A DNA stretch of 64,000 bases from Thermodesulfobacteriota bacterium (GTDB taxonomy: Bacteria > Desulfobacterota_D > UBA1144 > Nemesobacterales > UBA2774). The notes beneath the pieces were generated by a model. The model ran no database searches. It saw only the letters and a list, made by a program, of their open reading frames with translations, and was not told the origin of the DNA. The stretch lies in NCBI GenBank assembly GCA_963422265.1, contig OY729416.1, forward strand, positions 1,248,001 to 1,312,000, in the 5' to 3' direction. The position numbers and the translations under genes were made by a program. The stretch's first letter is position 1. Every line of letters begins with the position of its first letter. Below, one piece after another: positions 39,310-63,266 of the stretch.

Positions 39310-39317
39310 TCATCCTC

Positions 39318-43513: not shown

Positions 43514-46288
43514 TCAATGCGATTGGGACCAGTTGCGTCCAGTGCCGATGTCAACTTTGAGAGGAACGCTTAGTTCCCAGGCTCCTTCCATATCTTGCCT
43601 TACCACCTGAGATAAATCGTCTAGTTCCGTCTCTTTTGCCTCAAATAGCAATTCATCGTGAACCTGCAGAATCATACGGGCTTCATAGCCGTTTATTAGT
43701 CTCTTGTGTATCCTGACCATAGCTATTTTTATTATATCCGCCGCTGAGCCTTGAATCGGAGTATTCATCGCCATACGCTCCCCAAAACCCCTTCTATTTC
43801 TATCCCCAGATTGAAGCTCAGGTATGGGACGCCTGCGCCCCAAAATAGTCTCAGCGTATCCTTTATCCCGAGCTTCGGATATTGATTTCTCAATATATTC
43901 CTTTACGCTGTCATAGCGCCTGAAATATTCTTCAATATAACTCTTAGCTACCGACACTGAAGTGCCCAACTGCTTAGCAAGCCCAAAGGCACTTATTCCA
44001 TATATGATTCCGAAGTTAATATTCTTGGCAAACCTCCTCATTTCCGGCGTAACCATACCACCAGCAACGCCGAATATCTCCGACGCCGTCCTGTTGTGTA
44101 TATCGCTTCCCATTACAAAGGCTTCAACAAGGCTTTTATCTTGAGAAAAGTGCGCCAACAGCCTAAGCTCAATCTGAGAGTAGTCGGCGGAAAGTAGAAC
44201 ATACCCTTTCTCCGGAATAAAAGCCTCCCTAATTCTCTTTCCCTGCATAGTCTTAATAGGTATATTTTGAAGATTCGGATCGCTAGAGCTAAGCCTACCG
44301 GTAGAAGAACCTACCGGATTAAAAAAAGTATGAATCCTCCCCGTCTCACTATTTATGAGCTTTGGCAGAGAATCCACGTAAGTGGACTTGAGCTTTGATA
44401 AAGCCCTGTGCTCAAGAACCTTTTGGGGAACAGGATTGAGCTTGCTTAGATTGTTTAGAACCTCAACATCCGTCGAAGGCTCGCCTTTCTTCGTTAGCTT
44501 GCTCTTAGGAAGCCCCAGCGTATCAAAAAGAACTCTCCTCAACTGAAGGGGAGAATTAAGATTGAACTCATAACCAACTTTCGCATATATCTCTTTTGCC
44601 ACTTTTTCAAGGTATATCTCAAATTCATTTGACAATTCTTTAAGCCTCTCGGCATCCACTTTAACGCCATTCATCTCTACCTGCGCCAAAACCTGAATAA
44701 ACTCAAGCTCCACATCCTTAAATACTTGAGCGACTTTGATTTTTTCTAATTCAGGCTTCAGCACTCTACTCAGCATCATCGCCAAATTAGCTCTTTTGGA
44801 GGCGTATTCTTTTGCTGGCTCAAGTTCGAGCTCATCAAAGGTTATCCTAGATTTACCAACAGTGGTTACATCCTTGTAACTTACAATTCGGCGGTCAAGA
44901 TAGAGGCTTGACAATTCACCTAAACTGTAGCTGCCTCTAGATGAATCTATTATATGAGAGGCAATGATAGCATCAAAGGCAACGCTGCTCATATTAACGC
45001 CATATCTTTTCAGAACAACGATTTCGTGCTTGAGATTGTGCCCTACCTTGCTTATATATTTACTTTCTAATAAAGGCTTAACCTTTTCCAATACATAGGA
45101 AATATCTAGTTGTATAAACGAAGTATTGGACAGGTTATGGTGGGCAACCGGAACGTAGTAAGCCTCGTGCGAGACTGGACAGAGGGCTATACCAACGATT
45201 TGCGCAAGCATAGGCTTTGTTGAAGTAGTCTCAAGGGCTATTGCGACCTCACCTGTATCTTTGATCCGGCTTATCACTTTATCTAGTTCATCCACAGATA
45301 AAACGAGTCTATATTTTTCATGTGAAGCAGTAGTGCTATCTTCTGCAACATGCGCAGGGCCGCCTTGATCTTGCTGAATGGCTGAACCCGTTTCACTATG
45401 GTTATCTTTACCTGATGGGACTCGGGAACGTACTTCAGGTTCCCCAATCTCTCGTAGCAAATTCTTAAACTCAAGATCCCTAAATATTCGCCCTAGCTTT
45501 GCCTTATTTAACCCTTCATACTTAAAGCTCCAGACGTCTAGTCCCATTTGTATGTCCGTCTTGATGGTAAAAAGCCTCCTACTGAGCAAAGCGTCTTCCC
45601 TATTTTCTTCAATGAGCGCTCTCTGCCTACTCGTAACCTTATCCATATTTTCCAGTAAGCCGTCAAGAGAGCCAAACTCCGCTATAAGGCTAATAGCAGT
45701 CTTTTCACCTATTCCTTTCACTCCTGGAATATTATCAATTGCATCTCCGGCAAGGGCAAATACGTCTATTATCCTATTGGGAGTTACTCTATATTTTTTC
45801 ATAACCTCCTCAATACCAACTTGTCTATTCTTCATCGTATCAAGAAGAGTAACATTGGCTGAAACGAGCTGATAGAAGTCTTTGTCTCCAGTTACTAGAA
45901 CTACCTCCATGCCTTTCTGCTCCGCCACTTTCGCTATAGCTCCCATAACGTCGTCAGCCTCAAATCCATCTATCTGATACTGCGGGACGTTGAACCCATC
46001 TACTAGCTCAAAGATTTTAGAGAACTGGGGAACAAGGCCATCAGGGGGAGCGCTCCTGTTAGCTTTATACAGAGGATAAATTTTATTTCTAAAAGTATCC
46101 CCCTGTGAATCAAAAACGATGCCAAGGTATTGCGGGTTGTAGTCCTTCAAGAACTTAAACAGCATAGAAGCGAATCCATAGACCGCATTTGTCGGGAATC
46201 CCTTTGACGTGTTAAGGCTCTTAATCGCATAATAGGCTCGAAAGATATAAGAGCTACCATCTATAAGATACAAAACCGGCTTTCCCAT
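43514..46288 (-). CDS. polA: DNA polymerase I
   Basis: LIDGSSYIFRAYY, FEADD, DNIPGVKGIG, TGRLSSSDPNLQNIP, ADYSQIELR, NTPIQGSAAD, LQVHDEL. Confidence 0.98.
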   Translation of the reverse strand: MGKPVLYLIDGSSYIFRAYYAIKSLNTSKGFPTNAVYGFASMLFKFLKDYNPQYLGIVFDSQGDTFRNKIYPLYKANRSAPPDGLVPQFSKIFELVDGFNVPQYQIDGFEADDVMGAIAKVAEQKGMEVVLVTGDKDFYQLVSANVTLLDTMKNRQVGIEEVMKKYRVTPNRIIDVFALAGDAIDNIPGVKGIGEKTAISLIAEFGSLDGLLENMDKVTSRQRALIEENREDALLSRRLFTIKTDIQMGLDVWSFKYEGLNKAKLGRIFRDLEFKNLLREIGEPEVRSRVPSGKDNHSETGSAIQQDQGGPAHVAEDSTTASHEKYRLVLSVDELDKVISRIKDTGEVAIALETTSTKPMLAQIVGIALCPVSHEAYYVPVAHHNLSNTSFIQLDISYVLEKVKPLLESKYISKVGHNLKHEIVVLKRYGVNMSSVAFDAIIASHIIDSSRGSYSLGELSSLYLDRRIVSYKDVTTVGKSRITFDELELEPAKEYASKRANLAMMLSRVLKPELEKIKVAQVFKDVELEFIQVLAQVEMNGVKVDAERLKELSNEFEIYLEKVAKEIYAKVGYEFNLNSPLQLRRVLFDTLGLPKSKLTKKGEPSTDVEVLNNLSKLNPVPQKVLEHRALSKLKSTYVDSLPKLINSETGRIHTFFNPVGSSTGRLSSSDPNLQNIPIKTMQGKRIREAFIPEKGYVLLSADYSQIELRLLAHFSQDKSLVEAFVMGSDIHNRTASEIFGVAGGMVTPEMRRFAKNINFGIIYGISAFGLAKQLGTSVSVAKSYIEEYFRRYDSVKEYIEKSISEARDKGYAETILGRRRPIPELQSGDRNRRGFGERMAMNTPIQGSAADIIKIAMVRIHKRLINGYEARMILQVHDELLFEAKETELDDLSQVVRQDMEGAWELSVPLKVDIGTGRNWSQSH

Positions 46289-48266: not shown

Positions 48267-50268
48267 TTTCACCAGCGTACTTCATCTCGAGTTCCCTCAA
48301 TTCTTTTATTTGATCTCGCTTTTTTGCGGCTATCTCATATTCTAGATTCTTAGCCGCCTCCTTCATTTCCTTGCTTAAGACATTTATTTCGCTAGGAATT
48401 TGTTCAGGAAGAACGTTTAAGAATTCCTCACTCTTAGGTTCTTTAGCAACTGTGTAGTAATCCGCCTCATATATACTTGATAGTATATCATTGACCGATT
48501 TGTTGACTCCAGTTGCAGTGATACCGTTTTCCCGATTGTATTTCTCCTGAATCTTCCTTCTTCTGTTTGTCTCCGAAATAGCACCCGACATCGAAGACGT
48601 GACCTTATCCGCATATAAAATCACTTGTCCATCTACATTCCTCGCAGTTCTACCAAACATCTGTATAAGGGAGGTCTCAGAGCGGAGATACCCCTCTTTG
48701 TCAGCGTCAAGTATGGCAACAAGCGATACCTCAGGTATGTCCAAACCCTCTCTTAATAAATTAATTCCCACAAGAACGTCAAATTTTCCAAGTCTCAAAT
48801 CCCTCAATATGGCTATCCTCTCAAGCGTATTAATGTCTGAGTGCAGGTAATGCACTTTTACTCCAAGCTCTTTGTAGTAAAAAGTTAAGTCTTCCGCCAT
48901 TCTTTTGGTAAGAGTGGTAACGAGAGACCTGCTTCCCTTCTCAGCTCTTCTCCTTATTTCTTCTAACAAGTCATCTACCTGATTGTTAACGGGTCTTATT
49001 TCAACCTTAGGATCGGCAAGCCCAGTGGGGCGTATAATTTGCTCTGTTATAGCACCTTCCGCTTTGTCTATTTCATAAGTACCGGGGGTCGCAGAAACAT
49101 ATATCGTCTGCGGCATTTTTTCTTCAAACTCAGAGAAGTTAAGGGGCCTATTATCTAAGGCTGAAGGCAGCCTGAAACCATGCTCCACTAGATTCATCTT
49201 CCTACTCCTGTCCCCCCCATACATTGCCCTCAACTGCGGAATCATCTGGTGACTCTCGTCAATTATCATTAAAAAATCTTTGGGAAAGTAATCAAGTAAA
49301 GTCCATGGGGGCTGCCCAGCTAATCTTCCAGAAATATGCCTTGAATAATTTTCAATACCTGGACAAAAACCCATATTTCTAAGAAGCTCTAGGTCATAAT
49401 TTGTCTTTTCTTCAAGTCTTTGTCTCTCCACCAGCATTTTCCGCGCTTCAAGGTATTTGAGCCTTTCCGCAAGCTCTTTTTCTATGTTCTCAATTGCCCT
49501 TTCATGCCTATATTTAGGGGCTGCGTAGTGAGAACCAGGATATATCGCCGCTTTTGCAAGAGGCCTTAAAGTCTTCCCCCTAACTGGATCTATTTCTCTT
49601 AGTGAATCTACTTGATTCCCAAAAAACTCTATTCTTAGAGCAGTCTTATCATAGTGAGATGGAAAAACATCCACGATATTTCCCTTCACACGAAAACTGT
49701 TCCTATGCAGATCAACCCCTACTCTTTCATATTGAATTTCCGCAAGCTTGTCCACCAACTCATCTCTATCAAGCTCCATACCATTCTTAACTACCGTGAG
49801 AAGGCTATAATAGTGCATAGGAGCACCAATCCCATATATACATGATACGCTAGCCACTATTATTACACCCCTTCCTTCAAAGAGCGACGTGGTAGAAGCA
49901 TGGCGCAATCTATCTATATGCTCATTAACCTGAGCGTCTTTTTCTATGTAGGTATCAGTTGACGGTATATAGGCTTCAGGCTGATAGTAATCATAATAGC
50001 TCACAAAATATCTAACTGCATTTTGCGGGAACAGATCTTTTAATTCTCCATAGAGCTGTGCTGCTAAGGTCTTATTATGGGCGATAATTAGGGTGGGTCG
50101 CTCTAAAATTGCAATTACGTTCGCAACTGTGAACGTCTTGCCACTACCAGTAACTCCGAGAAGTACTTGATGCTTGTCACCTCGGAGGACGCCCTCGGTA
50201 AGCTCTTTGATTGCGTCTGGCTGATCACCAGTTGGGTAAAACTCAGAATGTAGCTTAAAGATGTCCAC
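48244..50268 (-). CDS. uvrB: Excinuclease ABC subunit B
   Basis: [40 protein letters not shown]; 23-nt convergent overlap with uvrC. Confidence 0.98.
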
Positions 50269-50437
50269 TATGTAAAGATGGATTCATAACCAGAGATGGG
50301 AATCACCCCCATTACACAGGTAGATGAAAAGCATATTTGCACATGTTGTAAGTGAAGCATAGATTACAGAACTCCAACTCCATGCATTTAGAATGACGGT
50401 TTTCACCTTTTAACGTTATCTATCTCTCACCAGCAAC

Positions 50438-50977
50438 CTACTGATACTGTAGGTGAAGCTCAGGAACCCTTTCCTCTATCCTCTTTTCTTTATCTCTTTC
50501 CTCACCCTCCAATAATGCCATATCCTCGGGCACCCCAATTATTCGCCGCAAGGATTTTAACTCTTGTTTTGTCCGCTTACGGCTTTGCTTCATCTTTTTG
50601 CTTCTAACACGCAACTCCCGCAATATATCTGACATGCTCTCCCGGTCACCCTCACTTACGTAACTAATCCGACCCCGTCGGGACATCATATCTCGGACAA
50701 ATCTATACTTATCATACTCCTCATCCGGTATAAAGTTATCTAAAAATCTATAAGCCTCCTCTATTATCTCACGTTCCCCTATATAGTCTTCGTGAAGCAA
50801 GTATATACCCATTGCGTGGCGTATTACCCCCACCGAATAAGGCAACATAGATTCTGGTAATGCCCACGGAAGTATGTTAAGCGCTCGCGCTCCTTTTCCA
50901 CGTTTAATCAACTCTAATACTTCCCCATACTTACTCAGCACTTCCCCAGGATGTAGCCCTTCTTGTTTCTGTTTCAT
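50438..50977 (-). CDS. Hypothetical protein (helical, coiled-coil C-terminus)
   Basis: 179-aa ORF with purine-rich RBS region and own predicted promoter; no family recognised. Confidence 0.65.
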   Translation of the reverse strand: MKQKQEGLHPGEVLSKYGEVLELIKRGKGARALNILPWALPESMLPYSVGVIRHAMGIYLLHEDYIGEREIIEEAYRFLDNFIPDEEYDKYRFVRDMMSRRGRISYVSEGDRESMSDILRELRVRSKKMKQSRKRTKQELKSLRRIIGVPEDMALLEGEERDKEKRIEERVPELHLQYQ

Positions 50978-51023
50978 TCTGTTACTTCCCTCTATCCTTT
51001 TTGCACTGTCTTCTTATACCACA

Positions 51024-51053
51024 ATTATATGACATAGAATGACGATATGTCTA
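51024..51053 (-). promoter_or_regulatory. Promoter with overlapping palindrome
   Basis: TAGACA-N18-TATAAT; inverted repeat GACATA-N9-TATGTC at 51031-51051. Confidence 0.5.
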
Positions 51054-51138
51054 TATAGTGTGGTGTGATATGAACTCACTACACCTTATACCTATTCTTC
51101 TCCATAATACCCATTCTTCTCCATAACCCCTACTACAT

Positions 51139-51179
51139 AAAAAAAGCAGGAGCCCCTTATATCACAAAGAGACCCCTGC
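51139..51179 (-). terminator. Intrinsic terminator after ADC-like pair
   Basis: GCAGGGGTCTCTT-loop-AAGGGGCTCCTGC-T7; 13-bp stem with three G-U pairs. Confidence 0.85.
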
Positions 51180-51222
51180 CACTTTACTTATATTAATCGC
51201 CTGCTCTCCTAAATACTACAAC

Positions 51223-52194
51223 CTACCCCTGTGAATACTGTGGCAACAAGAACCTATGGCGCATCGTATACTTAAACGGCGTAGAATACAATATCTGACC
51301 CAAATCATCATCACCACGCTCTACCGTCTTACTCCATATCGTTAACGCAGGTGGTATTATCAAATTAAACGTGAAACTTATCAATCCCACTACCTCAGTC
51401 GCAGGTATCTGACCACCCATAAAATCAAATGGAGTCCCTGACATATACCACGAACGTATATCTCCACCCGTAGCCGTCCGGATACTCTCAGGATTTAACT
51501 GAAAACGATGCCCTGTCCCAAAACCAGGTGGTAAGTCTGATGGCAAATACGTTACCTCATGGATACTGTTACTTACATCAGGCCGCGTCGTTATCCTGTA
51601 ATTCATTCGACCCCAATCCGTCTTACCATAAAACGTCGGCCGCGTCGATAACGGCTTGTCAGAATACCGCCCATTAGCCGTGTGTAGTATATATCCCCTA
51701 CGCTCCATCAAATGATTAAAATAATTGTTGTTCGTCCCATGCTCAAAACCCGCTATATATGCAGCCTTCTTTGGAAATCCAAACGGCTCCTTACCCGCAA
51801 ATATAGGAGAATCATTAGACAAATACATATATGGATAATATCCAGCCTTGTATATCTGCCCATCTCCTGAATCTACCGTAGCTGAAAACGTTACTCCCAT
51901 CTCCATATACGGACCCAACATCGTGTTACGATGTATCACATACCAAAACTCTATTACATCATCCTGCACCTCTATCGGCTCAGGAACTACCGCCTTCATA
52001 CTGCTTATGTCCGCTCGTACTACATAAGCCATCCAACGACTCTCTGTATACGTCAACGGTATTATGTCATAGTCAAATACAGGATCCGCCACACCTTGAG
52101 ATATGATGTGAATCCTATCCCTATCTCGAGGCAAAGGTGGTACCTCCCCCTCTGCCAACCATGGATAGCTATATTCATTCGCTTGTAATCCCAT
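51223..52194 (-). CDS. Acetoacetate decarboxylase-like superfamily protein (paralogue B)
   Basis: VPEPIEV, MLGPYMEMGV, YYPYMYL, AGKEPFGFPKK (Schiff-base Lys motif); AGGAGG RBS. Confidence 0.82.
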   Translation of the reverse strand: MGLQANEYSYPWLAEGEVPPLPRDRDRIHIISQGVADPVFDYDIIPLTYTESRWMAYVVRADISSMKAVVPEPIEVQDDVIEFWYVIHRNTMLGPYMEMGVTFSATVDSGDGQIYKAGYYPYMYLSNDSPIFAGKEPFGFPKKAAYIAGFEHGTNNNYFNHLMERRGYILHTANGRYSDKPLSTRPTFYGKTDWGRMNYRITTRPDVSNSIHEVTYLPSDLPPGFGTGHRFQLNPESIRTATGGDIRSWYMSGTPFDFMGGQIPATEVVGLISFTFNLIIPPALTIWSKTVERGDDDLGQILYSTPFKYTMRHRFLLPQYSQG

Positions 52195-52248
52195 TGCTTT
52201 TAACCTCCTAATTTCGTTTTTGTTTCTCTCCTCTAAAACTACTCACCC

Positions 52249-53220
52249 CTATGACCCCTGACTGATTGGAAACTGCTGACGTAATCCATACTTATATGGC
52301 GTCGCATATCCACGATAACTCGCAGGACGCTCATATGTCTCCGTCCATAATACATTCGCAGGAGGTATGATTAAATCAAATACAAACGATATCAAACCCG
52401 TTACCTCCTGTACCTTTAGCTCTGCTCCCATATTGTCAAATGGCGTCGCCTGCATAAACCAGTTTATCGCATCTCCAGACGCCGTCCGCGTGTGCTCAGG
52501 CTTGATCTGAAAACGATGCCCCTTTACGTTAAATATCGCAGGTAACTCCGATGGCAAATACGTTAACTGCCACTCTGAACTAGATACGTCCGGACGCGTT
52601 ATTACCTTCATGTTAAACTTGCCCCAGTCCACCTTACCATAAAAATGTGGCGGCGTTACTTGCTTGTCGTCAAACTGACCCGTCGCACTGTGCATCAAAT
52701 ACCCATTCCGAGACATAGCAAATCCAAAGAAATCCGTCCCCTTCTCTCCACCGTGTACCGTGCAACGTATATATGACATCTTCTTCGGAAATCCTAATAC
52801 TCGCCCCGCATCTACAGGCGCATCGCCCGTCAAATACATATACGGATAATATCCAGCCTTGTACACATTACCACGTGGATCCTTATACGTCGCCGATATC
52901 GTTACTCCAAACTCCAAATATGGACCCAACATCGTGTTCTTATGATCCACATACCAAAACTCTACTAAATCAGCATTCTCCCCATCCCATACCTCTAATG
53001 GCGGATTCGGACATAAACGCTGACGCGTACCCTCATCCACCCTTACTACAAACGCCGACCAACGACTATCTGTATATGTCAGAGGAAGAACGTCTATATC
53101 CCACAACGGATCCGATGGATTCGCTATGATCCATGACTTTATGTCACGCTCTATTGGAGGAGGTGGAACCTCCTTCGTGAGTTCCCAATACTTCGTAGGA
53201 ACGTTAAGATGACTTGGCAT
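52249..53220 (-). CDS. Acetoacetate decarboxylase-like superfamily protein (paralogue A)
   Basis: PPLEV, MLGPYLEFGV, YYPYMYL, AGRVLGFPKK; AAGGAGG RBS. Confidence 0.82.
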   Translation of the reverse strand: MPSHLNVPTKYWELTKEVPPPPIERDIKSWIIANPSDPLWDIDVLPLTYTDSRWSAFVVRVDEGTRQRLCPNPPLEVWDGENADLVEFWYVDHKNTMLGPYLEFGVTISATYKDPRGNVYKAGYYPYMYLTGDAPVDAGRVLGFPKKMSYIRCTVHGGEKGTDFFGFAMSRNGYLMHSATGQFDDKQVTPPHFYGKVDWGKFNMKVITRPDVSSSEWQLTYLPSELPAIFNVKGHRFQIKPEHTRTASGDAINWFMQATPFDNMGAELKVQEVTGLISFVFDLIIPPANVLWTETYERPASYRGYATPYKYGLRQQFPISQGS

Positions 53221-53404
53221 AGTCTTAATACCTCCTTACTTAAATAGTTTTTTGACCAGATTACCAACCCTTCTATATCATCTACATCTCTATATCATCT
53301 AATACCACTCTATACGATAAACTATAATACAATAACACTAATTATTATACAATCTAATTGCTCCTACTTAATCCTACCTATCTAACACCTACCTAATAAT
53401 ACCA

Positions 53405-53434
53405 CTTATAACAAATCCCATCACTCCTTGTCAA
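53405..53434 (-). promoter_or_regulatory. Promoter for ADC-like pair
   Basis: TTGACA-N15-TGT-TATAAG, followed by ~180-nt C-poor leader. Confidence 0.55.
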
Positions 53435-53534
53435 GAACTATTTGTTAAATTACAGAGAATAGCTGACGATAGCCAGAAGCTGAACATTAACGAGTGAAAT
53501 TATGAAAAAACAACAAACCTAAAACTAATAACAA

Positions 53535-54686
53535 CTATTTACCTAAGATGCTAACAACACAAGTAATGCCATCCATGGCTGGTTGCGCTCCACCCATTGT
53601 TTCTATTATCCCTACTTTAGCCCCCTCCTGCTGACGTTCACCAGCTTCACCCCTCAACTGCCATACTATCTCCGCCGTCTGCAGAAGCCCTGTCGCCCCT
53701 ACTGGGTGACCTCGAGATAGAAGCCCTCCACCTGGATTAACTGCTACTCCCCCCCCGTTTACCCAAGTACTTCTATCCTCTATTAGCTTACCACCTTCTC
53801 CCTTCTCGCAAAATCCTAGAGCTTCATACACCATCATCTCTGCTATAGAAAACGCATCGTGTATTTCCGCTACGTCCATATCCTCAGGACCTAGCCCTGC
53901 TTGCTCATACGCCATTCTTGACGTCCGCATCACGTTCTCTGAAGGATCGCAAGTGAGACCCTTTGGACTTGAGTACTTCCCTGATTGAGCTACACAACCC
54001 AACACCTTGATTGGTTCCTTCGTAGCTAGCTTATCCACTAACTTCTCTGAGCATAGTACCGCTGACGCCGAAGCATCACCTACAGGACAACACATGTTGC
54101 GCGTTAGAGGATCTGCTATCATCGGCGAGTTTAGCACATCTTCTATCGTAACTTCTTTCCGATATTGGGCTAATGGATTCAAGGACGCATGATGACGGCT
54201 TTTTACCACTACTTTCGCCAACTGCTCCGGCGTAACCCCGTATTCCGACATGTACCGCTTCGCCCGCATCGCATATAGACCAGGCATTCCCATTCCCAAC
54301 GACACCTCTATATCATCTTCTTCTAAAGGCAAAGGTCCACCCGATAGCACCCTGCTTAAATTCTCTATACCCAAAGCTAAAGCTATGTCATATTGACCAA
54401 AAGCTATTGTTCTCCATGCCTCCCAAAAAGAAAGAGTGCCACTTCCGCATGCCCCCTCAACGTTTATTGTCGGCTGACCAACCAACCCTATCTCTTTAAG
54501 AGTCCTTTGACCTACTCCCATCCCCTGATATACGTGTCCACAAAACGCTATCTCTATCTTCCTAGGATGAATACCTGCATCCTGTATCGCCGCCCATGCT
54601 GACTCGCGTCCTAAAACATGCGCAGGCTTATCAGGAAATCTCCCACAAGCAGTAGTTCCTACCCCTATGATATATACATCTTGCAT
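53535..54686 (-). CDS. SCP2-type thiolase family protein (catalytic Cys present)
   Basis: NVEGACGSG, AEIHDAF, GGLLSRGHPVGATG, QLRGEAGERQ. Confidence 0.9.
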   Translation of the reverse strand: MQDVYIIGVGTTACGRFPDKPAHVLGRESAWAAIQDAGIHPRKIEIAFCGHVYQGMGVGQRTLKEIGLVGQPTINVEGACGSGTLSFWEAWRTIAFGQYDIALALGIENLSRVLSGGPLPLEEDDIEVSLGMGMPGLYAMRAKRYMSEYGVTPEQLAKVVVKSRHHASLNPLAQYRKEVTIEDVLNSPMIADPLTRNMCCPVGDASASAVLCSEKLVDKLATKEPIKVLGCVAQSGKYSSPKGLTCDPSENVMRTSRMAYEQAGLGPEDMDVAEIHDAFSIAEMMVYEALGFCEKGEGGKLIEDRSTWVNGGGVAVNPGGGLLSRGHPVGATGLLQTAEIVWQLRGEAGERQQEGAKVGIIETMGGAQPAMDGITCVVSILGK

Positions 54687-54706
54687 TTGTAGAAATCCCT
54701 CCTGTT

Positions 54707-54771
54707 AAAAAAAAAGGGGGGAAGGGGAGGTGGCGAGGTTTATCCTTCTCATGCCACTTCCCTATCCCACC
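54707..54771 (-). terminator. Intrinsic terminator after AmiS/UreI gene
   Basis: GGGAAGTGGC..GAG / CTC.GCCACCTCCC long imperfect stem followed by T9; RBS of next gene lies just downstream. Confidence 0.75.
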
Positions 54772-54795
54772 AATACTCTTATCCACACTTATACT

Positions 54796-55338
54796 CTACC
54801 CACCAGCACTAAGAGCCGTTATCGGACCCCACGTGCCCGTCAATAACAACATACCAGGCAACATTAACGTCAACACCGACTCTATCAAAAATAACCACGC
54901 TACCGTCGGTCCCAATGCCTTCCCCAAAGAAAATACCAAAAATACCAAAAATACTAACAATGCCCATGACCAACAAAATAAAGCATAATACATCATACCA
55001 GGAATCGCTCCCTCCAATCCATAAAAATGAAATCCATACCAAACAAACACTACCGTAGCAAATAAACAATACCAACCCAAACCCTTCGCATCATGACCAT
55101 GTATGAATATCCCCGCCACCATCAAATATATCAACGCAAATACCGATACCAATGCCGTCGCCGCCGTTAAATCCAACTCATGCAACTTCCACGCCGCTAT
55201 CAATATCAATATCGCTACGCCTAAGTTTAATACCCCTACCTCCTTCGCACCCGTCTTCCCCAATACCGTCATACCATTACAAAAAAATACAAATCCTACC
55301 AACAACAATACATAACCCAACAACATATCTATTCCCAT
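54796..55338 (-). CDS. AmiS/UreI-family channel
   Basis: Six TM helices; LLLVGFVFFCNG..LGK..AKEVGVLN, FALIYL, DAKGLGWYCLF, WSWALL, LMLPGMLLL. Confidence 0.85.
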   Translation of the reverse strand: MGIDMLLGYVLLLVGFVFFCNGMTVLGKTGAKEVGVLNLGVAILILIAAWKLHELDLTAATALVSVFALIYLMVAGIFIHGHDAKGLGWYCLFATVVFVWYGFHFYGLEGAIPGMMYYALFCWSWALLVFLVFLVFSLGKALGPTVAWLFLIESVLTLMLPGMLLLTGTWGPITALSAGG

Positions 55339-55416
55339 CTTCCTCCTTACCTCCTTATAATATGAGTTTTCTTACCTCTTTCTTTTCTTCTTCTTTTCTC
55401 CCCTACCCCCTCTACT

Positions 55417-55446
55417 CTTTTAACACACTTCACTACCCCATGTCAA
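55417..55446 (-). promoter_or_regulatory. Internal promoter for AmiS/UreI gene
   Basis: TTGACA-N15-TGT-TAAAAG; doubled SD AAGGAGGTAAGGAGG downstream. Confidence 0.5.
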
Positions 55447-55471
55447 GATACTTTTTACCTCACCCTCCAAT

Positions 55472-55927
55472 TTACCCCTCACCACGACGCCTTACCAGTA
55501 TCACCCACTTCCCAACCTGTACCACCTCTCCACCCTGATTATATACCTTTACCTCAAATATCAAAAATCCCATCCCTCCTCGCTTATGCTCACGCTTCTC
55601 CAATAACTCACGCCTCACATGAACTGTGTCCCCTAACTTCACCGCCCCTGAAAACCGCCAATCCTCCAATCCCATAAACGCCACTGTCCCCAAACGCGGC
55701 ATCGTAAACCATAAACCCGATGCTATAGATAATACACACAAACCATGCGCTACACGCCCCTTAAACACCGTACCACGCGCAAACTCCTCATCCACATGCA
55801 TATCGTTAAAATCCCCAGATAAACCAGCAAAACCCACTACGTCTGCCTCGGTCACCGTCCGACCACTGCTCTCATGTACCTCCCCCACCTCTATATCCTC
55901 ATATAACAACCGCACTGCTTCACCCAT
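55472..55927 (-). CDS. MaoC-family (R)-enoyl-CoA hydratase/dehydratase
   Basis: YEDIEVG, GRTVTEADV..FAGLSGDFNDMH (D-x4-H), GRVAHG, NQ.GEVV. Confidence 0.9.
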   Translation of the reverse strand: MGEAVRLLYEDIEVGEVHESSGRTVTEADVVGFAGLSGDFNDMHVDEEFARGTVFKGRVAHGLCVLSIASGLWFTMPRLGTVAFMGLEDWRFSGAVKLGDTVHVRRELLEKREHKRGGMGFLIFEVKVYNQGGEVVQVGKWVILVRRRGEG

Positions 55928-56366
55928 CCCTATTTACCCCCTCCTTCTTTACAGGCTTGAACTTCGGTAACGTTACCTCATCCGTTACGTCATCAAACAC
56001 TACCTCCACCTCCATACCTATATAAACATCTCCAGCCTCTACTCCCACCACGTTCGTCATTATCTTTACACCTTCCCCCAGCTCCACTAACGCAACCACA
56101 TACGGCGGCTCGCCCTTATACGCCTTCGTCGGACCCATGTGGTGCACCGCATACGTCCACACCTTACCTAACCCCCGAGAACGCACCCACTCTATCTCTT
56201 TACTCATTTCTTCCCCAGGACTATACGCACGCGGATAAAAAAAATACTCCCCACTTACCTTACTCCTTGGTATCAATAACTCATGCCCCTTACATCCCTC
56301 CCAATACCGCCGCGTCTCCGGACGAAAATCCGGCAACGGCTTCCCATATCCTCTCGCCTCACTCAT
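55920..56366 (-). CDS. DUF35 Zn-ribbon/OB-fold protein (thiolase partner)
   Basis: KPLP, YWEG, G.GKVWTY, PPYVVALVELGEG, IGMEVEVVF, LPKFKP; overlaps MaoC start. Confidence 0.9.
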   Translation of the reverse strand: MSEARGYGKPLPDFRPETRRYWEGCKGHELLIPRSKVSGEYFFYPRAYSPGEEMSKEIEWVRSRGLGKVWTYAVHHMGPTKAYKGEPPYVVALVELGEGVKIMTNVVGVEAGDVYIGMEVEVVFDDVTDEVTLPKFKPVKKEGVNRDG

Positions 56367-56385
56367 CGCTTGTCTCTCCCTCCTC

Positions 56386-57588
56386 TTATGTTAATGCCTG
56401 ATTCCCTAATACTACCGTGCTGTGCGCAGACACTATACCACCATTCCCATGAACTAACGCTACCTCGGAACCCTCTACCTGCCTATCCCCACAATCACCT
56501 CGCAACTGCAACACCGCCTCCACTACATGGTGCATCGCTCCCAAATGTGCCTGTGATAACAAACCCCCATGCGTGTTCACAGGTAAATCCTTACCTATCT
56601 CCATCCGCCCCTCCAAAGAAAACGCACCCCCCTCCCACTTAGGCACAAAACCCAACCCCTCTAACTCTAACAATACCGTTATCGTAAAACAATCATACAA
56701 ATACGCTATATCCACGTCACCCACACCTATACCTGCCGTCTCAAACGCCCTACCCCCAGACCTTCCTATCGCCTCATATATCTGATCCAAACCATCAAGA
56801 CTCGTCAAATACTGATGTGAATACCCCTGCCCCATACCCCATAAATACGCTAGCTTATTCTCTATCCCCAGCTCCCGCGCCTTATCCTCCGTCGTTACTA
56901 TAAACGCCGCTCCACCATCTGATATTATAGAACAATCATACTTCGTCAACGGCTCCGCTATCACCCTAGAACTCAACACTTCCTCTATGCTCAACGGCTC
57001 CTTATTCATCGCATTCTCTTTCAACCCCGCATGCTTACGCATCGTTACTGCTACAGAAGCTAAATGCTCCCGACTACATCCACTCTCATACAAATACCGC
57101 TGTGCCGCTAACGCATATCCACCAGGCGTCGTTAATCCATAAGGATACTCAAACTCACCATGACACATCTCGCGTATCAAAGCCACCATACCTGAAGACG
57201 ATATACCAGATAACGTGTTATCTCCGCGCACACATAATACTACCTCCGCCTGACCCGTTGCTATTGCCATCGCCGCCTCCGCTACCATCCACACCGCCGT
57301 CGCACCCCCTACTGCTACCGATGAAAAAAAACGAGGCCGCATACCAAAATAATCTGCAAACGTCGTGCAGTGCATAAACGTATGCTCCACCAATGAAAAC
57401 GCCGTTACTAGTCCATCCACTTCCCCCTTCTTTATCCCTGCATCCTCTATAGCCAACTTCGACGCCTGTGATAAAAAATCAAATGAACTACGACCCGATA
57501 TACGCCCCTGCTCCGTCTCACCAACTCCTGCTATTACTACACCCTTCCCCTTTAATACCTCCCGCGCTTCCTTCATATCGCTACCCAT
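56386..57588 (-). CDS. Ltp2-like thiolase-fold protein (probable aldolase; no catalytic Cys)
   Basis: VIAGVGET, VAVGGATA (no Cys), YDCSIISDGG, YLYDCFT, VNTHGGLLSQAH; start placed at ATG 57588 behind GGAGG. Confidence 0.88.
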   Translation of the reverse strand: MGSDMKEAREVLKGKGVVIAGVGETEQGRISGRSSFDFLSQASKLAIEDAGIKKGEVDGLVTAFSLVEHTFMHCTTFADYFGMRPRFFSSVAVGGATAVWMVAEAAMAIATGQAEVVLCVRGDNTLSGISSSGMVALIREMCHGEFEYPYGLTTPGGYALAAQRYLYESGCSREHLASVAVTMRKHAGLKENAMNKEPLSIEEVLSSRVIAEPLTKYDCSIISDGGAAFIVTTEDKARELGIENKLAYLWGMGQGYSHQYLTSLDGLDQIYEAIGRSGGRAFETAGIGVGDVDIAYLYDCFTITVLLELEGLGFVPKWEGGAFSLEGRMEIGKDLPVNTHGGLLSQAHLGAMHHVVEAVLQLRGDCGDRQVEGSEVALVHGNGGIVSAHSTVVLGNQALT

Positions 57589-57615
57589 ATCTCTATACCC
57601 CCCTCCTTCCTTATT

Positions 57616-57666
57616 CATAATTATCTGTCAATTAATTATGTTAATTGTCCCCACTAAGATTGTCAA
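57616..57666 (-). promoter_or_regulatory. Promoter and operator-like palindrome of thiolase-DUF35-MaoC operon
   Basis: TTGACA(57666-57661)-N17-TAACAT(57643-57638); CATAATTA-N9-TAATTATG at 57616-57640. Confidence 0.6.
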
Positions 57667-57671
57667 ATCCC

Positions 57672-58700
57672 CTAACTCCGCTGAGGTTCTATAATAATCT
57701 TAATAGATTCCTGAGCATCCTCTACCATGCGGAATCCTTTCTCAGTCTCCGAAAGCGGAAGCCTGTGTGTAATCATATTCTTCACGTTTACGCGCTTAGA
57801 CTTGATAAGCTCTAAAGCCAAAGTTAAGTCCGCAGGAGAAGCGGCATAAGAGCTCGTAACTGCAACCCCCGACCACCAGAAATTATTGAATGGAATTGAA
57901 ATCCTAACGTCGGGATCCGATGGGGCGAAGAATAACACTTTGCCCCCCGTCTCTACTAGTTTAAAAGATTGCTCTACCGCGGATCTAGCTCCCGTGCACA
58001 CCACTACGAAATCAACAAGCCTCCCGCTGTTTATCTCTTTTATACACGTAAATAAATCTTCCCTAGCATTGATTGAAAAATCGGCTCCAAATTCAGTCGC
58101 CGCGTCAAGCCTGTATTCACTGAGGTCAGTCGCTATGATACACCCCGCTCCCTGAGCACGCGCCAACTGTATATGGAGGAGTCCTGTAATTCCGCTCCCT
58201 ATCACAAGCACGCTGTCCGCCATTTGCAAATTTGCCAAACGCTGTCCACGAACGACGCAGCCAAGGGGCTCTACGAAAGAGCCTTCCTCATAGGAAACCC
58301 CATCGGGAAGCATAAGGACACCCCTATCTACGTTAATTGAAGGTATGCGAACGTACTCAGAGAAACCACCTGGATCAAAGCGAGTGGACTTTAAGGTAGG
58401 ACAAACTGAATGATTGCCTCTCAGGCATTGGTAGCAGGTATTGCAAGGAACGTGATGAGTGGCTACCACCCTGTCCCCCTCTTGGAACTTATGAACTTCC
58501 TCCCCCACCTCTACTACGTCACCCGCTATCTCATGCCCCAAGACCAAGGGAGCTTTCGGAAGGCGGTACCACTCCATTAAATCACTCCCACAAATCCCGC
58601 TAGCTCCAACGCGCACCAGTATTTCACGTGGACATATCTTAGGTTTAGGCACGTCCTCAAGACGGACGTCTCTATTGCTATAATACATGGCGGCGCGCAT
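57672..58700 (-). CDS. Zn-dependent medium-chain (sorbitol/threonine-type) dehydrogenase
   Basis: GICGSD, LGHE, CxxCxxC-x7-C, VEPLGC, GSGITG. Confidence 0.92.
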   Translation of the reverse strand: MRAAMYYSNRDVRLEDVPKPKICPREILVRVGASGICGSDLMEWYRLPKAPLVLGHEIAGDVVEVGEEVHKFQEGDRVVATHHVPCNTCYQCLRGNHSVCPTLKSTRFDPGGFSEYVRIPSINVDRGVLMLPDGVSYEEGSFVEPLGCVVRGQRLANLQMADSVLVIGSGITGLLHIQLARAQGAGCIIATDLSEYRLDAATEFGADFSINAREDLFTCIKEINSGRLVDFVVVCTGARSAVEQSFKLVETGGKVLFFAPSDPDVRISIPFNNFWWSGVAVTSSYAASPADLTLALELIKSKRVNVKNMITHRLPLSETEKGFRMVEDAQESIKIIIEPQRS

Positions 58701-62279: not shown

Positions 62280-63266
62280 TTAGTTTAGATCAGTTCTAAT
62301 TGGCATTTGGAGATCGTCAAGCATTCGCAAATCTTCCTCTGGGGGTCTTCCGGGAGTAGTTAAGTAGTTGCCTAAAATCATCGCATTCGCTCCGGCGACG
62401 AGACCCATAGCCTGTAAGTCGCGGAGCGTAACCTCGCGACCCCCCGCCGTCATAAGTATCTTATCAGGAAGAATTAGTCTGAATATGGATATTGTTTTCA
62501 CCGCCTCAAAAGGTGGAACGGTCTCAATATCCTCAAAAGGCGTTCCCGGCCTTGGATTCAGAAAGTTTATAGGGATCCAGCTCGGGCCCAGCTCCCTCAA
62601 TTCAAATGCAAGCTCAATTCTTTGTTCAACCGATTCTCCCATACCTAGAATCCCACCTGAGCAAAGGCGCATACCAACCTTTTTTACAAGCTGAGCCGTT
62701 CTACACCTGTCTTCATAAGTGTGCGTAGTGCAGATATGAGGGAAAAAGCTTTTGCAAGTCTCAAGATTATGATTATAGCGCCAGACGCCATGCTCTTTCA
62801 ACTCATAAGCTTGGTCTTCCTTTAAGTCTCCTAGAGAACAACCGACTTTAAGGTTAGTGTGCTCACGTAACAAGTCAACTGCCTCAAGCACCTTTTTCAA
62901 AATACGCGGGGTAGGACCCTTAGCGCTAATAACTATGCAAAAATCCATAGCCCCCATCTTTTCAGCATGTTTCGCAGCCAATAGAATCTTCTCGGCAGCC
63001 ATAAGGGGATAAGACTCTACCATAGTATCAAAATGCGCCGATTGCGAGCAGAAAGAGCAATCCTCCGGGCAGTTTCCCGTCTGCGCACTTATTATAGAGC
63101 GCAGAAATACGCCGTCACCCTTGTATTTTAAGGTAACCTTTCTCGCAAGGGATATAAGATCAGGAACCCTATCCTTAGGAAGCTTAGTTAACTGTACCGC
63201 TTCCTCAAATTCAATAGGTTCTTCTCTTCTTAGTAGCTTATCAGAAAGCGATTCAAGAATGGAAAT
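62280..63266 (-). CDS. bioB: Biotin synthase (probable ATT start)
   Basis: Radical-SAM CPEDCSFCSQS lies upstream of the track's ATG (63023); YNHNLET, CSGGILGMGE, PINFLNP, AGGRE, GNYLTT; start coordinate inferred. Confidence 0.92.
   Translation of the reverse strand: MSILESLSDKLLRREEPIEFEEAVQLTKLPKDRVPDLISLARKVTLKYKGDGVFLRSIISAQTGNCPEDCSFCSQSAHFDTMVESYPLMAAEKILLAAKHAEKMGAMDFCIVISAKGPTPRILKKVLEAVDLLREHTNLKVGCSLGDLKEDQAYELKEHGVWRYNHNLETCKSFFPHICTTHTYEDRCRTAQLVKKVGMRLCSGGILGMGESVEQRIELAFELRELGPSWIPINFLNPRPGTPFEDIETVPPFEAVKTISIFRLILPDKILMTAGGREVTLRDLQAMGLVAGANAMILGNYLTTPGRPPEEDLRMLDDLQMPIRTDLN

What the first reader, a model, noticed from the sequence alone, without database searches (positions are those of the whole stretch)
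51139..57640. Extreme coding-strand cytosine depletion confined to this locus
Hand count in the AmiS/UreI gene: 4 of 180 codons end in C, 34 of 35 Leu are TTR, all Lys are AAG and all Glu GAG; Thr/Ala/Val/Ile favour ACG/GCG/GTA/ATA. Intergenic 55339-55471 has 4 sense-strand C in 133 nt, two of them in TCTTGACA. Same-strand neighbours (dehydrogenase 57672-58700, uvrB) use C-ending and CTN codons freely, so this is not a replichore effect, and non-coding DNA is affected, so it is not only tRNA adaptation. Inference: transcription-associated deamination of the exposed non-template strand, selection for C-poor/G-rich RNA (Rho avoidance), or inheritance from a strongly skewed donor.
Basis: partly seen in the sequence, partly recalled or inferred. 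Interest (0 to 1): 0.85.

Follow-up and report, generated by a model that had tools for sequence, protein, structure and literature searches.

The report
Cytosine-purged, duplicated high-expression operon
A duplicated metabolic operon of an uncultured Dadabacteria-like bacterium almost completely avoids cytosine on its coding strand, a signature shared only with the genes for EF-Tu, GroES/EL and a surface-protein anchor, so it points to extreme expression rather than foreign origin, but why cytosine is avoided is still open.

Summary
Five of six spacers are also C-poor.

It is not confined to this locus. Both modules have a 99.5-99.9% identical second copy 410 kb away. The same codon dialect is used by tuf x2 and groES/EL x2. 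On a score trained on tuf and groEL, these and the locus genes form a separate class of 16 ORFs. Five autotransporter barrel modules show the same dialect less strongly, as an earlier scan note reported for one of them. Ribosomal-protein genes show a milder C3 loss.

Orthologues elsewhere (0 of 19, 79 and 76 scored) lack the dialect, and trees place the gene in its own family. Transfer from a skewed donor is therefore rejected.

Plain deamination fits poorly. At four-fold sites C is replaced by G, not T. Amino-acid replacements run C>G 8 against C>T 2.

Best reading: an expression-scaled avoidance of C in transcripts plus selection for G-ending codons, arisen in place. The driver (Rho avoidance, scarce CTP, template-G damage) is unresolved. 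This is a new variant of expression-linked bias.

The parts
54708..57622 (-). Module A, the most strongly C-purged block. It is duplicated at genome 890773-893695 (99.5% identity, 4 mismatches, 2 gaps).
   Evidence: Run X1 gives one contig over exactly 54708-57622 at 33x, against 21x on the flanks.
56386..57618 (-). thl410: SCP-x-type thiolase-like protein (Thiolase_C_1, Thiolase_N). C3 0.032, G3 0.45.
   Evidence: closest solved chains 4u4e, 6ok1, 6esq, 7pxp.
55920..56366 (-). DUF35 / ChsH2-type OB-fold protein. C3 0.040, G3 0.52.
55472..55927 (-). MaoC-like (R)-hydratase. C3 0.033. Coding-strand GC skew 0.62, the highest in the genome.
55339..55471 (-). Purine-rich spacer: 4 C in 133 nt (A 56, G 49, T 24). 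It contains TTGACA, which holds two of the four C, and a double AGGAGG before the AmiS start.
   Evidence: It is the third most C-poor of 418 co-directional spacers of at least 50 nt; its own second copy is second.
54796..55338 (-). AmiS/UreI-family channel gene. C3 0.022, the lowest of 1449 ORFs.
53535..54686 (-). thl383: second thiolase-domain protein (nearest NCBIfam models PRK06064 and BbsB, both below their cut-offs). Single copy. Intermediate bias: C3 0.081, four-fold C 0.041, dialect score -0.09.
51022..53452 (-). Module B, duplicated at genome 893753-896181 (99.9% identity). In the second copy it lies upstream of module A.
   Evidence: X1 contig 51029-53452 at 39.5x.
52249..53220 (-). 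ADC1: acetoacetate-decarboxylase-fold protein (PF06314). C3 0.077. 92-93% identical to orthologues in eight of the relatives' loci examined.
51223..52194 (-). ADC2: paralogue of ADC1 (about 50% identity). C3 0.065.
57638..57666 (-). Promoter-like site TTGACA-17-TAACAT in the ADH-thl410 spacer. The composition changes from normal to C-poor here.
   Evidence: (a consensus match only).
51145..51180 (-). Terminator-like hairpin (14 pairs plus a T run) after ADC2.
50438..50977 (-). hyp179: ORF with no family match and an intermediate bias (C3 0.094, dialect score -0.16). It is preceded by the promoter-like site 51053-51024.

Best explanation
The locus is the ancestral copy of a thiolase-like / DUF35 / MaoC / AmiS-UreI / thiolase / ADC-like x2 gene set. 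The set is conserved across the relatives examined. In this genome its modules A and B are present twice.

Its cytosine depletion is the extreme end of a native, expression-scaled signature of this genome. It has two layers.
1. Avoidance of C anywhere in the transcript. This covers third codon positions, first positions of Leu codons, spacers and even amino-acid choice.
2. A strong preference for G-ending codons, for which the genome has C34 tRNAs, plus ATA, GTA, CGT and GGT.

The full dialect is used only by tuf, groES/EL, modules A and B, and more weakly by autotransporter barrel modules. The operon therefore most likely encodes some of the most abundant proteins of the cell.

The signature arose in place on the branch leading to this genome. 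It was not imported. I infer that it is kept by selection on transcript and codon composition rather than by C-to-U deamination alone. Which selective agent acts is not shown. Candidates are escape from Rho, which loads on C-rich, G-poor RNA; scarce CTP during heavy transcription; and fewer oxidisable G in the template strand.

Shown: the pattern, its members, its lineage specificity and its effect on protein sequence. Inferred: very high expression, and selection as the cause.
For: 1. Class membership.
- A synonymous-codon log-odds score was trained on tuf and groEL. The bulk of 1449 ORFs falls at -1.2 to 0.1, nothing falls between 0.1 and 0.4, and 16 ORFs fall at 0.41-0.63.
- The 16 are the trained tuf x2 and groEL x2 plus the untrained module A x2 (8 ORFs) and module B x2 (4 ORFs).
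- groES x2 scores 0.29.
- Identities.

2. Gradient. Four-fold-site C is 0.22 in the bulk, 0.158 in 26 ribosomal-protein genes, 0.081 in hyp179, 0.056 in groESL, 0.041 in thl383 and 0.014-0.017 in tuf, module A and module B.

3. Beyond codons.
- Five of six locus spacers lie at or below about the 6th percentile of sense-strand C. Pooled, they hold 60 C in 818 nt.
- thl410 has 43 lineage-unique amino-acid replacements, against 6-30 in 19 orthologues. The net change at codon positions 1+2 is -13.7 C and +24.3 G, against dG of -5.7 to +2.3 in the others.

4. Native and in place.
- No orthologue carries the dialect: 0 of 19 relatives' loci, 0 of 79 scored of 80 genome-contig loci (best -0.20), 0 of 76 scored of 80 metagenome loci.
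- thl410 groups with genus g2 of its own family, with weak support (80/72), on a terminal branch of 0.25 against a median of 0.023.
- UvrB next door gives a similar placement (with g7, then g2), with a terminal branch of 0.24 against a median of 0.057.
- uvrB lies on the same contig as the thl410 orthologue, about 6 to 23 kb away, in G007, G009, G001, G018, G017, G002, G008, G016 and G021.

5. The dialect is older for EF-Tu. 9 of 27 EF-Tu genes of other genomes, from 6 genomes in 6 families, have C3 of 0.12 or less and G3 of 0.42 or more. Their thl410 and groEL do not.

6. Pointers to high expression.
- Protein conservation matches EF-Tu and GroEL: ADC1/ADC2 mostly 90-93% identical, thl410 79-86%, EF-Tu 80-90%, GroEL 78-91%. 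UvrB is 58-83%.
- The locus is duplicated here, and more than one thl410 locus is present in many relatives.
- A double Shine-Dalgarno sequence precedes AmiS.
- Weak hint only: in run X5 a 3603-nt contig with 7 differences shows that a close strain is present. Contigs on the locus carry word depth 37-1329 against 0-7 on the flanks. The DNA-like run X1 is flat at 21, with 33-39 on the two duplicated modules. The tool warns that contig depth cannot rank genes, that X5 being RNA is a guess, and that the run was found with this locus.

7. Codon-level selection is also acting.
- Arg moves from AGR (65% in the genome) to CGN (73-82% in the class), which adds C.
- Asn stays AAC in tuf, 7 of 7.
- Val prefers GTA, and there is no tRNA-Val with anticodon CAC. 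Thr, Ala, Lys, Glu and Gln prefer NNG, and C34 tRNAs exist for them.
Against: - Expression was never measured. No listed run is on record as RNA.
- Ribosomal-protein genes, the classic highly expressed set, do not use the dialect (score -0.68 against -0.77 for the bulk). At four-fold sites they replace C by T, not G. So the class is not simply 'all highly expressed genes'.
- The barrel modules carry the signature while the N-terminal parts of the same ORFs have C3 of 0.33-0.61. One ORF has one expression level. This needs the extra assumption that the passenger parts are recent imports.
- Every full member of the class is a near-identical repeat. A link to duplication or gene conversion is therefore not excluded.
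- Preference for U over C in all NNY boxes, although only G34 tRNAs exist, is not what tRNA matching predicts.
- Predicted mRNA folding is not weaker in absolute terms: -25.3 against -24.9 kcal/mol per 120 nt. One popular benefit of C loss is therefore not seen.
- If this small genome (1.78 Mb) comes with a small effective population size, which is my assumption and was not measured, mutation bias would be favoured over selection.
Confidence: 0.6

Rival explanations
1. Transcription-associated mutation bias. The non-template strand of very heavily transcribed units is single-stranded more often and loses C by deamination. Codon selection then shapes what remains.
For: - C loss is sharply bounded by transcription units and includes spacers.
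- Leu moved CTN to TTR, a synonymous C>T path. Arg did not move CGN to AGR, which needs C>A.
- Ribosomal-protein genes and barrels do show C down and T up at four-fold sites (T 0.42 and 0.37 against 0.31).
- Family-1 Ung was not found.
Against: - In tuf and modules A and B, four-fold T falls or stays (0.25-0.29) while G doubles to 0.39-0.48.
- Locus spacers replace C mostly by G: 0.28 against 0.21 in genome spacers.
- ATT is 0-3% and ATA 79-97% of Ile codons, which transitions cannot produce.
- Inferred one-step replacements are C>G 8, A>G 5, C>T 2.
- A UDG-superfamily gene (138.6 bits) and Mfd are present.
Confidence: 0.2
2. Pure translational selection. The dialect is just the set of codons best matched to this organism's tRNA pool, seen only in the few most abundant proteins.
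For: - It is shared with tuf and groESL.
- NNG codons are preferred where C34 tRNAs exist, and GTA where none exists.
- CGT/CGG are preferred over AGR, and AAC is kept in tuf.
- EF-Tu shows it in six other families.
Against: - Spacers are C-poor.
- Amino-acid replacements are directional towards G and away from C.
- Nearly all NNC codons are avoided, although G34 tRNAs pair best with C; AAC (Asn) is the main exception.
- Ribosomal-protein genes move along another axis.
Confidence: 0.1
3. A by-product of duplication. Near-identical repeats kept alike by gene conversion accumulate a strand-specific bias through biased heteroduplex repair.
For: - All four repeats of at least 1 kb and at least 99% identity are the class members: tuf 100%, groESL 99.4%, module A 99.5%, module B 99.9%.
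- The barrels are a five-copy family.
- The single-copy thl383, which lies between the two modules, is only intermediate.
Against: - Other repeats are not skewed: 38142-40448 / 42544-44850 (95%, skew -0.07) and 617762-619776 / 1108459-1110473 (97%, skew 0.12).
- Relatives with two thl410 or two groEL copies lack the dialect.
- The single-copy thl383 and hyp179 are partly affected.
- From general knowledge, GC-biased conversion raises G and C together and gives no skew.
Confidence: 0.07
4. Horizontal transfer from a donor with this skew.
For: - The composition is atypical and has sharp edges.
- Module order differs between the two copies.
Against: - 0 of 174 scored orthologous genes (19 + 79 + 76; the sets may overlap) carry the bias, and none is more than 86% identical.
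- The tree places thl410 with its own family, with weak support.
- uvrB lies on the same contig as the thl410 orthologue in relatives.
- The genome's own tuf and groESL share the bias, and their best matches are in the same family.
Confidence: 0.03

Closest known systems
Major-codon bias of highly expressed bacterial genes (translational selection, as described for E. coli and B. subtilis; recalled, not from a call)
   Same: A small set of very abundant proteins (EF-Tu, GroEL) uses a restricted codon set that partly tracks the tRNA repertoire.
   Different: - Nearly every C-ending codon is avoided although only G34 tRNAs read NNY.
- Ribosomal-protein genes do not follow the dialect.
- Non-coding spacers and amino-acid choice are also shifted.
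[quoted passage not shown]
   Same: - Strand-specific skews at synonymous sites scale with expression and need selection as well as mutation.
- The paper cites an earlier proposal that C is avoided in transcripts because CTP is the scarcest NTP.
   Different: - The paper reports that selection favours C over G in 71.5% of 1,550 genomes, and more so at higher expression. Here the direction is the opposite and the size extreme (four-fold C 0.015).
- I could not see its supplementary tables, which may list genomes of the minority type.
Transcription-induced strand asymmetry by cytosine deamination (E. coli work of Beletskii and Bhagwat, and of Francino and Ochman; recalled, not read here)
   Same: Loss of C on the non-template strand of transcribed DNA, including untranslated parts.
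   Different: The expected gain of T is missing in the top class. G gains instead, and replacements are mostly C>G.
Rho utilisation sites (C-rich, G-poor, YC-rich RNA; recalled)
   Same: - The purged transcripts are the mirror image of a Rho loading site. 0 of 223 (module A) and 0 of 87 (tuf) 78-nt windows have C>G, against 23.8% of bulk windows.
- The share of C preceded by a pyrimidine is 0.31 against 0.46.
- Rho is encoded.
   Different: - There is no evidence that Rho acts on these genes.
- My two-term-set literature search listed no paper that links gene-wide G-over-C skew of highly expressed genes to Rho.
SCP-x-type thiolase-like enzymes that work with a DUF35 OB-fold partner. Solved relatives by sequence: 6ok1 'lipid-transfer protein', 6esq/6et9 acetoacetyl-CoA thiolase, 7pxp benzoylsuccinyl-CoA thiolase subunit, 5m3k PhlC. 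Their biology is recalled.
   Same: The thiolase-like gene is followed by a DUF35 gene and a MaoC hydratase gene. This is the layout of CoA-thioester C-C bond-making or -cleaving modules.
   Different: - It is joined here to an AmiS/UreI channel and two 323-aa ADC-fold proteins that have no solved relative by sequence.
- The substrate is unknown.
The cytosine-purged autotransporter barrel noted earlier by this scan in the same genome (e1-1204678)
   Same: Same genome, and the same C loss with AAG/GAG preference. Barrel codons score 0.2-0.5 on the tuf/groEL dialect.
   Different: - In the barrels, four-fold G is hardly raised (0.26) and T is up (0.37).
- The signature covers only part of an ORF.

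Membership tests
Expression-linked codon bias (translational selection) | The bias is shared with canonical highly expressed genes. | tested here: inconclusive
   Shared fully with tuf x2 and groES/EL x2. The 26 ribosomal-protein genes share only the C3 loss, not the dialect.
Expression-linked codon bias (translational selection) | Preferred codons match the tRNA repertoire. | tested here: inconclusive
   Met for NNG codons (C34 tRNAs for Lys, Glu, Gln, Thr, Ala, Leu) and for GTA. Not met for NNY boxes, where U is preferred although only G34 tRNAs exist.
Expression-linked codon bias (translational selection) | The effect is limited to synonymous codon choice. | tested here: not met
   Spacers are C-poor. 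There are 43 directional amino-acid replacements in thl410.
Transcription-associated cytosine deamination | C is lost on the non-template strand, including non-coding transcribed DNA. | tested here: met
Transcription-associated cytosine deamination | The lost C reappears as T. | tested here: not met
   Four-fold T is 0.25-0.29 against 0.31 in the bulk, and G is 0.39-0.48 against 0.22. One-step replacements: C>T 2 of 24, C>G 8 of 24.
Horizontally acquired compositional island | The nearest homologues or the tree point outside the host lineage, or to a donor with the same composition. | tested here: not met
Rho-avoiding transcript | Rho is encoded, and C/G is well below 1 along the whole transcript with YC depleted. 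| tested here: met
Rho-avoiding transcript | Rho terminates a C-restored version, or the purged genes are Rho-insensitive in vivo. | not testable with these tools
   This needs termination assays.
SCP-x thiolase / DUF35 enzyme systems | A thiolase-like protein with the Thiolase_C_1 domain, next to a DUF35 OB-fold gene. | tested here: met
   PF22691 at 161.5 bits and PF01796 at 70.8 bits in adjacent genes. PDB relatives.
SCP-x thiolase / DUF35 enzyme systems | Catalytic residues and a physical complex. | not tested
   No structure or complex prediction was run.
AmiS/UreI channels | A full-length match to PF02293. | tested here: met
   95.3 bits, residues 7-168 on profile positions 2-165 of 166. 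There was no NCBIfam hit.

The most novel reading that the evidence does not exclude
This lineage has evolved a transcript-level rule, 'no cytosine in the most heavily transcribed RNAs', which is the same as 'no guanine in their template strand'. The rule is strong enough to rewrite the amino-acid sequence of one of the most conserved enzymes of the order. That enzyme's terminal branch is 0.25 against a median of 0.023.

The rule could be an adaptation to a cellular weakness, not a matter of codon-tRNA matching. Candidates:
- No canonical 8-oxoguanine repair was found in the order: MutY in 0 of 41 genomes, and Fpg only just below its cut-off in 2 of 41. Template G would then be a source of faulty transcripts.
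- An unusually aggressive Rho.
- Scarce CTP.

If this holds, base composition of single operons could be read as a record of which damage or termination process limits gene expression in uncultured bacteria.
Probability: 0.15. Interest if true: 0.8.

Novelty: new variant of a known kind. Interest (0 to 1): 0.58.

Why it matters
- It gives a sequence-only marker for the most abundant proteins of an uncultured bacterium. It singles out an unstudied thiolase/DUF35/MaoC/AmiS/ADC-like operon as central to its physiology.
- The direction of the bias (C avoided, more so in the presumed top-expressed genes) runs against the majority trend reported for 1,550 prokaryotic genomes (PMC4844684, section read).
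- The bias reaches non-coding RNA and protein sequence. That makes this genome a clean natural case for separating codon-level selection, transcript-level selection and transcription-linked mutation.
- EF-Tu shows the bias in several families while the operon shows it only here. This offers a built-in comparison.

Tried and rejected
- No RNA holder listed. The runs marked 'RNA?' are guesses. Parts of the flanks without cover in X5, X10 and X11 are not used as evidence.
I compared them with blastn in a script instead.
- Rfam scan of 50000-58500 at E up to 1: only a chance miRNA-model hit on the terminator hairpin. The purine-rich spacer matches no known RNA family.
- Weaker mRNA folding as the benefit: the class does not fold less than bulk genes in absolute terms (-25.3 against -24.9 kcal/mol per 120 nt). 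It folds less only relative to its raised G+C.
- Loss of CTP synthase as the cause: PyrG is present at 825 bits.
- Loss of Mfd: it is present.
- Loss of 8-oxoG repair as the reason the operon is purged only in this genome: not a difference from the relatives. MutY was found in 0 of 41 genomes at E 1e-40. Fpg was found only just below its cut-off, in 2 of 41. The Ogg model is a weak test, because no control genome reaches its cut-off.
- ADH next door as a control gene for branch length: relatives' loci hold no homologue. UvrB was used instead. One UvrB row (G027) was a wrongly picked ORF with a branch length of about 10 and should be ignored.
- Closer relatives that might show an intermediate stage: none above 86% identity in genome contigs or metagenome contigs.
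- Literature:
  - 'Dadabacteria' + 'codon' gave 13 papers, 10 listed; no listed title concerns codon usage.
  - The Rho / C-rich / G-poor / highly expressed / GC skew search gave 4 papers, 2 listed, neither on this.
  - The purine-loading search gave 10 papers. From the listing only, PMC5028192 on mRNA:ncRNA avoidance is a related idea.
  - The Dadabacteria + sponge + metatranscriptome + thiolase search gave nothing on this operon.

Full report
**What is there**

The flagged stretch lies on the - strand of the window, which is G000:C1:1248001-1312000 in a 1.78-Mb, 44% G+C, single-contig genome. Relatives' records are titled Candidatus Dadabacteria or Thermodesulfobacteriota MAGs.

The genes run in this order:
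- thl410 (56386-57618), an SCP-x-type thiolase-like protein
- a DUF35/ChsH2-type OB-fold protein (55920-56366)
- a MaoC hydratase (55472-55927)
- an AmiS/UreI channel (54796-55338)
- a second thiolase-domain protein, thl383 (53535-54686)
- two paralogous 323-aa acetoacetate-decarboxylase-fold proteins, ADC1 (52249-53220) and ADC2 (51223-52194)
- a 179-aa ORF without family, hyp179 (50438-50977)

Upstream on the same strand lie ADH, DeoC-type aldolase, bioF-like and bioA-like genes. Downstream lies uvrB.

The closest solved relatives of thl410 by sequence are thiolase-like enzymes. Several of them, as I recall, act with a DUF35 partner: 4u4e, 6ok1, 6esq/6et9, 7pxp and 5m3k. ADC1 has no solved relative by sequence.

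**Checking the observation**

My own ORF caller found 1449 ORFs of at least 100 aa, with mean C3 0.203 and sd 0.051. Against these, the locus genes hold ranks 1, 4, 5, 8, 11, 16, 19 and 25 for low C3. The neighbours ADH (rank 903) and uvrB (rank 172) are ordinary.

The + strand GC skew is -0.31 to -0.64 over 51-57 kb, against -0.08 to -0.23 beside it. A 150-nt profile shows the change within about 100 nt of 57650.

Spacers are affected too. Among 418 co-directional spacers of at least 50 nt, the median sense-strand C is 0.176 and the 5th percentile 0.094. The locus spacers have 0.030, 0.056, 0.070, 0.094 and 0.098; one, 54687-54795, is normal at 0.193. Pooled without that one, they hold 60 C in 818 nt, P 4e-18.

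**Not confined to the locus**

- Both modules are duplicated. Window 54708-57622 matches genome 890773-893695 (99.5%). Window 51022-53452 matches genome 893753-896181 (99.9%). In the second copy the order is B then A, and thl383 is missing.
- A DNA-like run confirms this. Its contigs break at exactly these edges and carry 33-39x against 21x on the flanks.
- The next most C3-poor genes of the genome are EF-Tu (two 100% identical copies, C3 0.048) and GroEL (two copies, C3 0.08).
- I trained a synonymous-codon log-odds score on tuf and groEL. The bulk of ORFs lies between -1.2 and 0.1, nothing lies between 0.1 and 0.4, and 16 ORFs lie at 0.41-0.63. These are the trained genes plus the eight ORFs of module A and the four of module B, which were not in the training.
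- groES x2 scores 0.29. No other ORF of at least 90 aa exceeds 0.1.
- thl383 (-0.09) and hyp179 (-0.16) are intermediate.
- The last 400-500 codons of four giant autotransporter ORFs examined also score 0.2-0.5, with C3 of 0.02-0.11. The N-terminal parts of the same ORFs have C3 of 0.33-0.61. A fifth ORF holds the same barrel.

**The dialect**

In the class, the main codon choices are as follows:

| Amino acid | Usage in the class |
|---|---|
| Phe, Tyr, Asp | 61-100% U-ending (His mostly CAU; GroEL has 2 CAC of 2) |
| Lys, Glu | 88-100% G-ending (Gln 75-100%) |
| Leu | 85-92% TTR |
| Ile | 79-97% ATA |
| Thr | 66-91% ACG |
| Ala | 52-74% GCG |
| Val | GTA at least as frequent as GTG |
| Gly | GGT/GGG |
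| Arg | CGN 73-82%, against 35% in the genome |
| Asn in tuf | AAC 7 of 7 |

The genome has 45 tRNA genes. These include C34 tRNAs for Leu, Lys, Glu, Gln, Thr, Ala, Pro, Gly, Ser and Arg. There is no tRNA-Val with anticodon CAC, and only G34 tRNAs serve the two-codon NNY boxes.

Part of the dialect therefore looks like codon-tRNA selection: NNG where a C34 tRNA exists, GTA where none exists, and CGT/CGG. The near-total avoidance of NNC does not.

Base shares at four-fold sites:

| Set | A | C | G | T |
|---|---|---|---|---|
| Bulk | 0.25 | 0.22 | 0.22 | 0.31 |
| Module A | 0.26 | 0.017 | 0.48 | 0.25 |
| tuf | 0.25 | 0.015 | 0.47 | 0.26 |
| 26 ribosomal-protein genes | 0.21 | 0.158 | 0.21 | 0.42 |
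| One barrel | 0.32 | 0.043 | 0.26 | 0.37 |

Loss of C is the common, graded feature. What replaces it differs between sets.

**Origin**

The gene set is conserved in the relatives examined. thl410 is 79-86% identical, ADC1/ADC2 mostly 90-93%, and OB, MaoC and AmiS 58-73%. Many relatives hold more than one thl410 locus.

None of the orthologues carries the bias:
- 19 relatives' loci: C3 0.12-0.49.
- 79 scored of 80 genome-contig loci: best score -0.20.
- 76 scored of 80 metagenome loci: best score -0.65.

In GC-richer relatives the gene is C3-rich instead (0.43-0.49).

The thl410 tree puts G000 next to genus g2 of its own family, with weak support (80/72). Its terminal branch is 0.25 against a median of 0.023. 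UvrB next door places G000 with g7 and then g2, with 0.24 against a median of 0.057 (ignore the mis-picked G027 row). uvrB lies on the same contig as the thl410 orthologue, about 6 to 23 kb away, in several family members. The window copy is therefore native and probably the ancestral one. Transfer from a skewed donor is rejected.

EF-Tu carries a similar bias in 9 of 27 genes scored from other genomes (G025, G026, G029, G031, G036, G037; six families). GroEL of relatives does not: 27 were scored, with a best score of 0.03. Barrel homologues in G037 do not either (two rows read in a long frame). The signature is thus old for EF-Tu and has spread to more genes only on the branch to this genome.

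**Effect on the protein**

thl410 of G000 has 43 lineage-unique replacements, against 6-30 in the 19 orthologues. The net change at codon positions 1 and 2 is -13.7 C and +24.3 G. The others range from -5.7 to +2.3 for G. Where one nucleotide step explains the change, the steps are C>G 8, A>G 5, T>A 4, G>T 4, C>T 2 and G>C 1. Purifying selection filters such counts, so they are suggestive only.

**Mechanism**

Expression linkage is supported by several indirect points:
- The class includes EF-Tu and GroES/EL.
- C3 loss is graded, with ribosomal-protein genes in between: 0.13 against 0.206, P 3e-14.
- The operon's proteins are as conserved as EF-Tu and GroEL, while UvrB is 58-83% identical. From general knowledge, abundant proteins evolve slowly.
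- The locus is duplicated.

There is also one weak hint. In run X5 a close strain is present (a 3603-nt contig with 7 differences). Contigs on the locus carry word depth 37-1329 against 0-7 on the flanks. The tool warns that contig depth cannot rank genes, that X5 being RNA is a guess, and that the run was found with this locus. Expression itself was not measured.

Simple deamination is disfavoured because T does not rise, ATT is nearly absent, spacers gain G, and C>G replacements dominate. Pure tRNA matching is disfavoured by the spacers, the protein changes and the NNY boxes. Duplication alone is disfavoured by unskewed repeats and by duplicated but unbiased orthologues.

Selection on transcript composition remains, with an unknown agent:
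- Rho avoidance. Rho is encoded. No 78-nt window with C>G occurs in module A (0 of 223) or tuf (0 of 87), against 23.8% of bulk windows. TC and CT dinucleotides are depleted.
- Scarce CTP. This idea is cited in PMC4844684. PyrG is present.
- Fewer oxidisable G in the template strand. MutY was found in 0 of 41 genomes and Fpg only just below its cut-off in 2 of 41, which is an order-wide trait.

None of these was tested.

The main unresolved points are why ribosomal-protein genes do not join the class, and why only the barrel part of the giant ORFs does. For the barrels I assume that the passenger parts are recent imports, in line with the scan note e1-1204677, but I did not test this.

**Comparison with what is known**

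Chen et al. 2016 (abstract and one section read) report that in 71.5% of 1,550 genomes selection favours C over G at four-fold sites of transcribed DNA, increasingly so with expression. This genome is of the minority direction and extreme. My searches listed no paper on codon usage in Dadabacteria and none linking gene-wide G-over-C skew to Rho.

I rate this a new variant of expression-linked compositional bias, with interest 0.58.

Noticed in passing
G000:C1:613545-613620 (outside the window): ARAGORN calls a tRNA-Pro with anticodon AGG, in addition to Pro tRNAs with GGG, CGG and TGG. Four Pro tRNAs among 45 is many, and an A34 Pro tRNA is unusual for a bacterium.
   Followed up: no
whole genome G000 and 40 relatives: Canonical 8-oxoguanine repair genes were not found. 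MutY: 0 of 41 genomes at E 1e-40. Fpg: only two genomes, at 197-201 bits, below the cut-off of 203.3. Family-1 Ung is not found in G000, but a UDG-superfamily gene is present.
   Followed up: partly
window 53288: In run X5 a contig carries a 27-nt insertion made of a short repeated unit, in the spacer between thl383 and ADC1. This is a strain-level length variant.
   Followed up: no
G000:C1:21889-25209, 317935-323298, 855954-860591, 957260-963481, 1040600-1046938: Giant autotransporter ORFs are compositional mosaics. N-terminal parts have C3 of 0.33-0.61, repeat parts about 0.28 and barrel ends 0.02-0.11. The barrels are 89-97% identical in protein to one another.
   Followed up: partly
G000:C1:1657817-1658389: A 190-aa coiled-coil-like ORF has a very strong local GC skew (0.68 over 575 nt). 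It has C3 of 0.084 but only a dialect score of -0.09. Pfam gives only weak coiled-coil matches below their cut-offs.
   Followed up: no
G000:C1:9786-10780: Two overlapping ORFs without any Pfam match have G3 of about 0.48-0.50 and C3 of 0.09-0.10. They lie upstream of a 1895-aa ORF with G3 mostly 0.3-0.5 along most of its length. This may be another strongly expressed cluster.
   Followed up: no
window 51024-51053 and its copy near genome 893755-893785: A promoter-like site (TAGACA-18-TATAAT, 11 of 12) lies after the ADC2 terminator, inside the duplicated module B. In the window it faces hyp179. In the second copy the same sequence would face thl410. This is an inference only.
   Followed up: no
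window 62280-63023: The biotin-synthase-like ORF is only 247 aa. Its radical-SAM match starts at profile position 26, so the gene may be truncated or may start further upstream.
   Followed up: no
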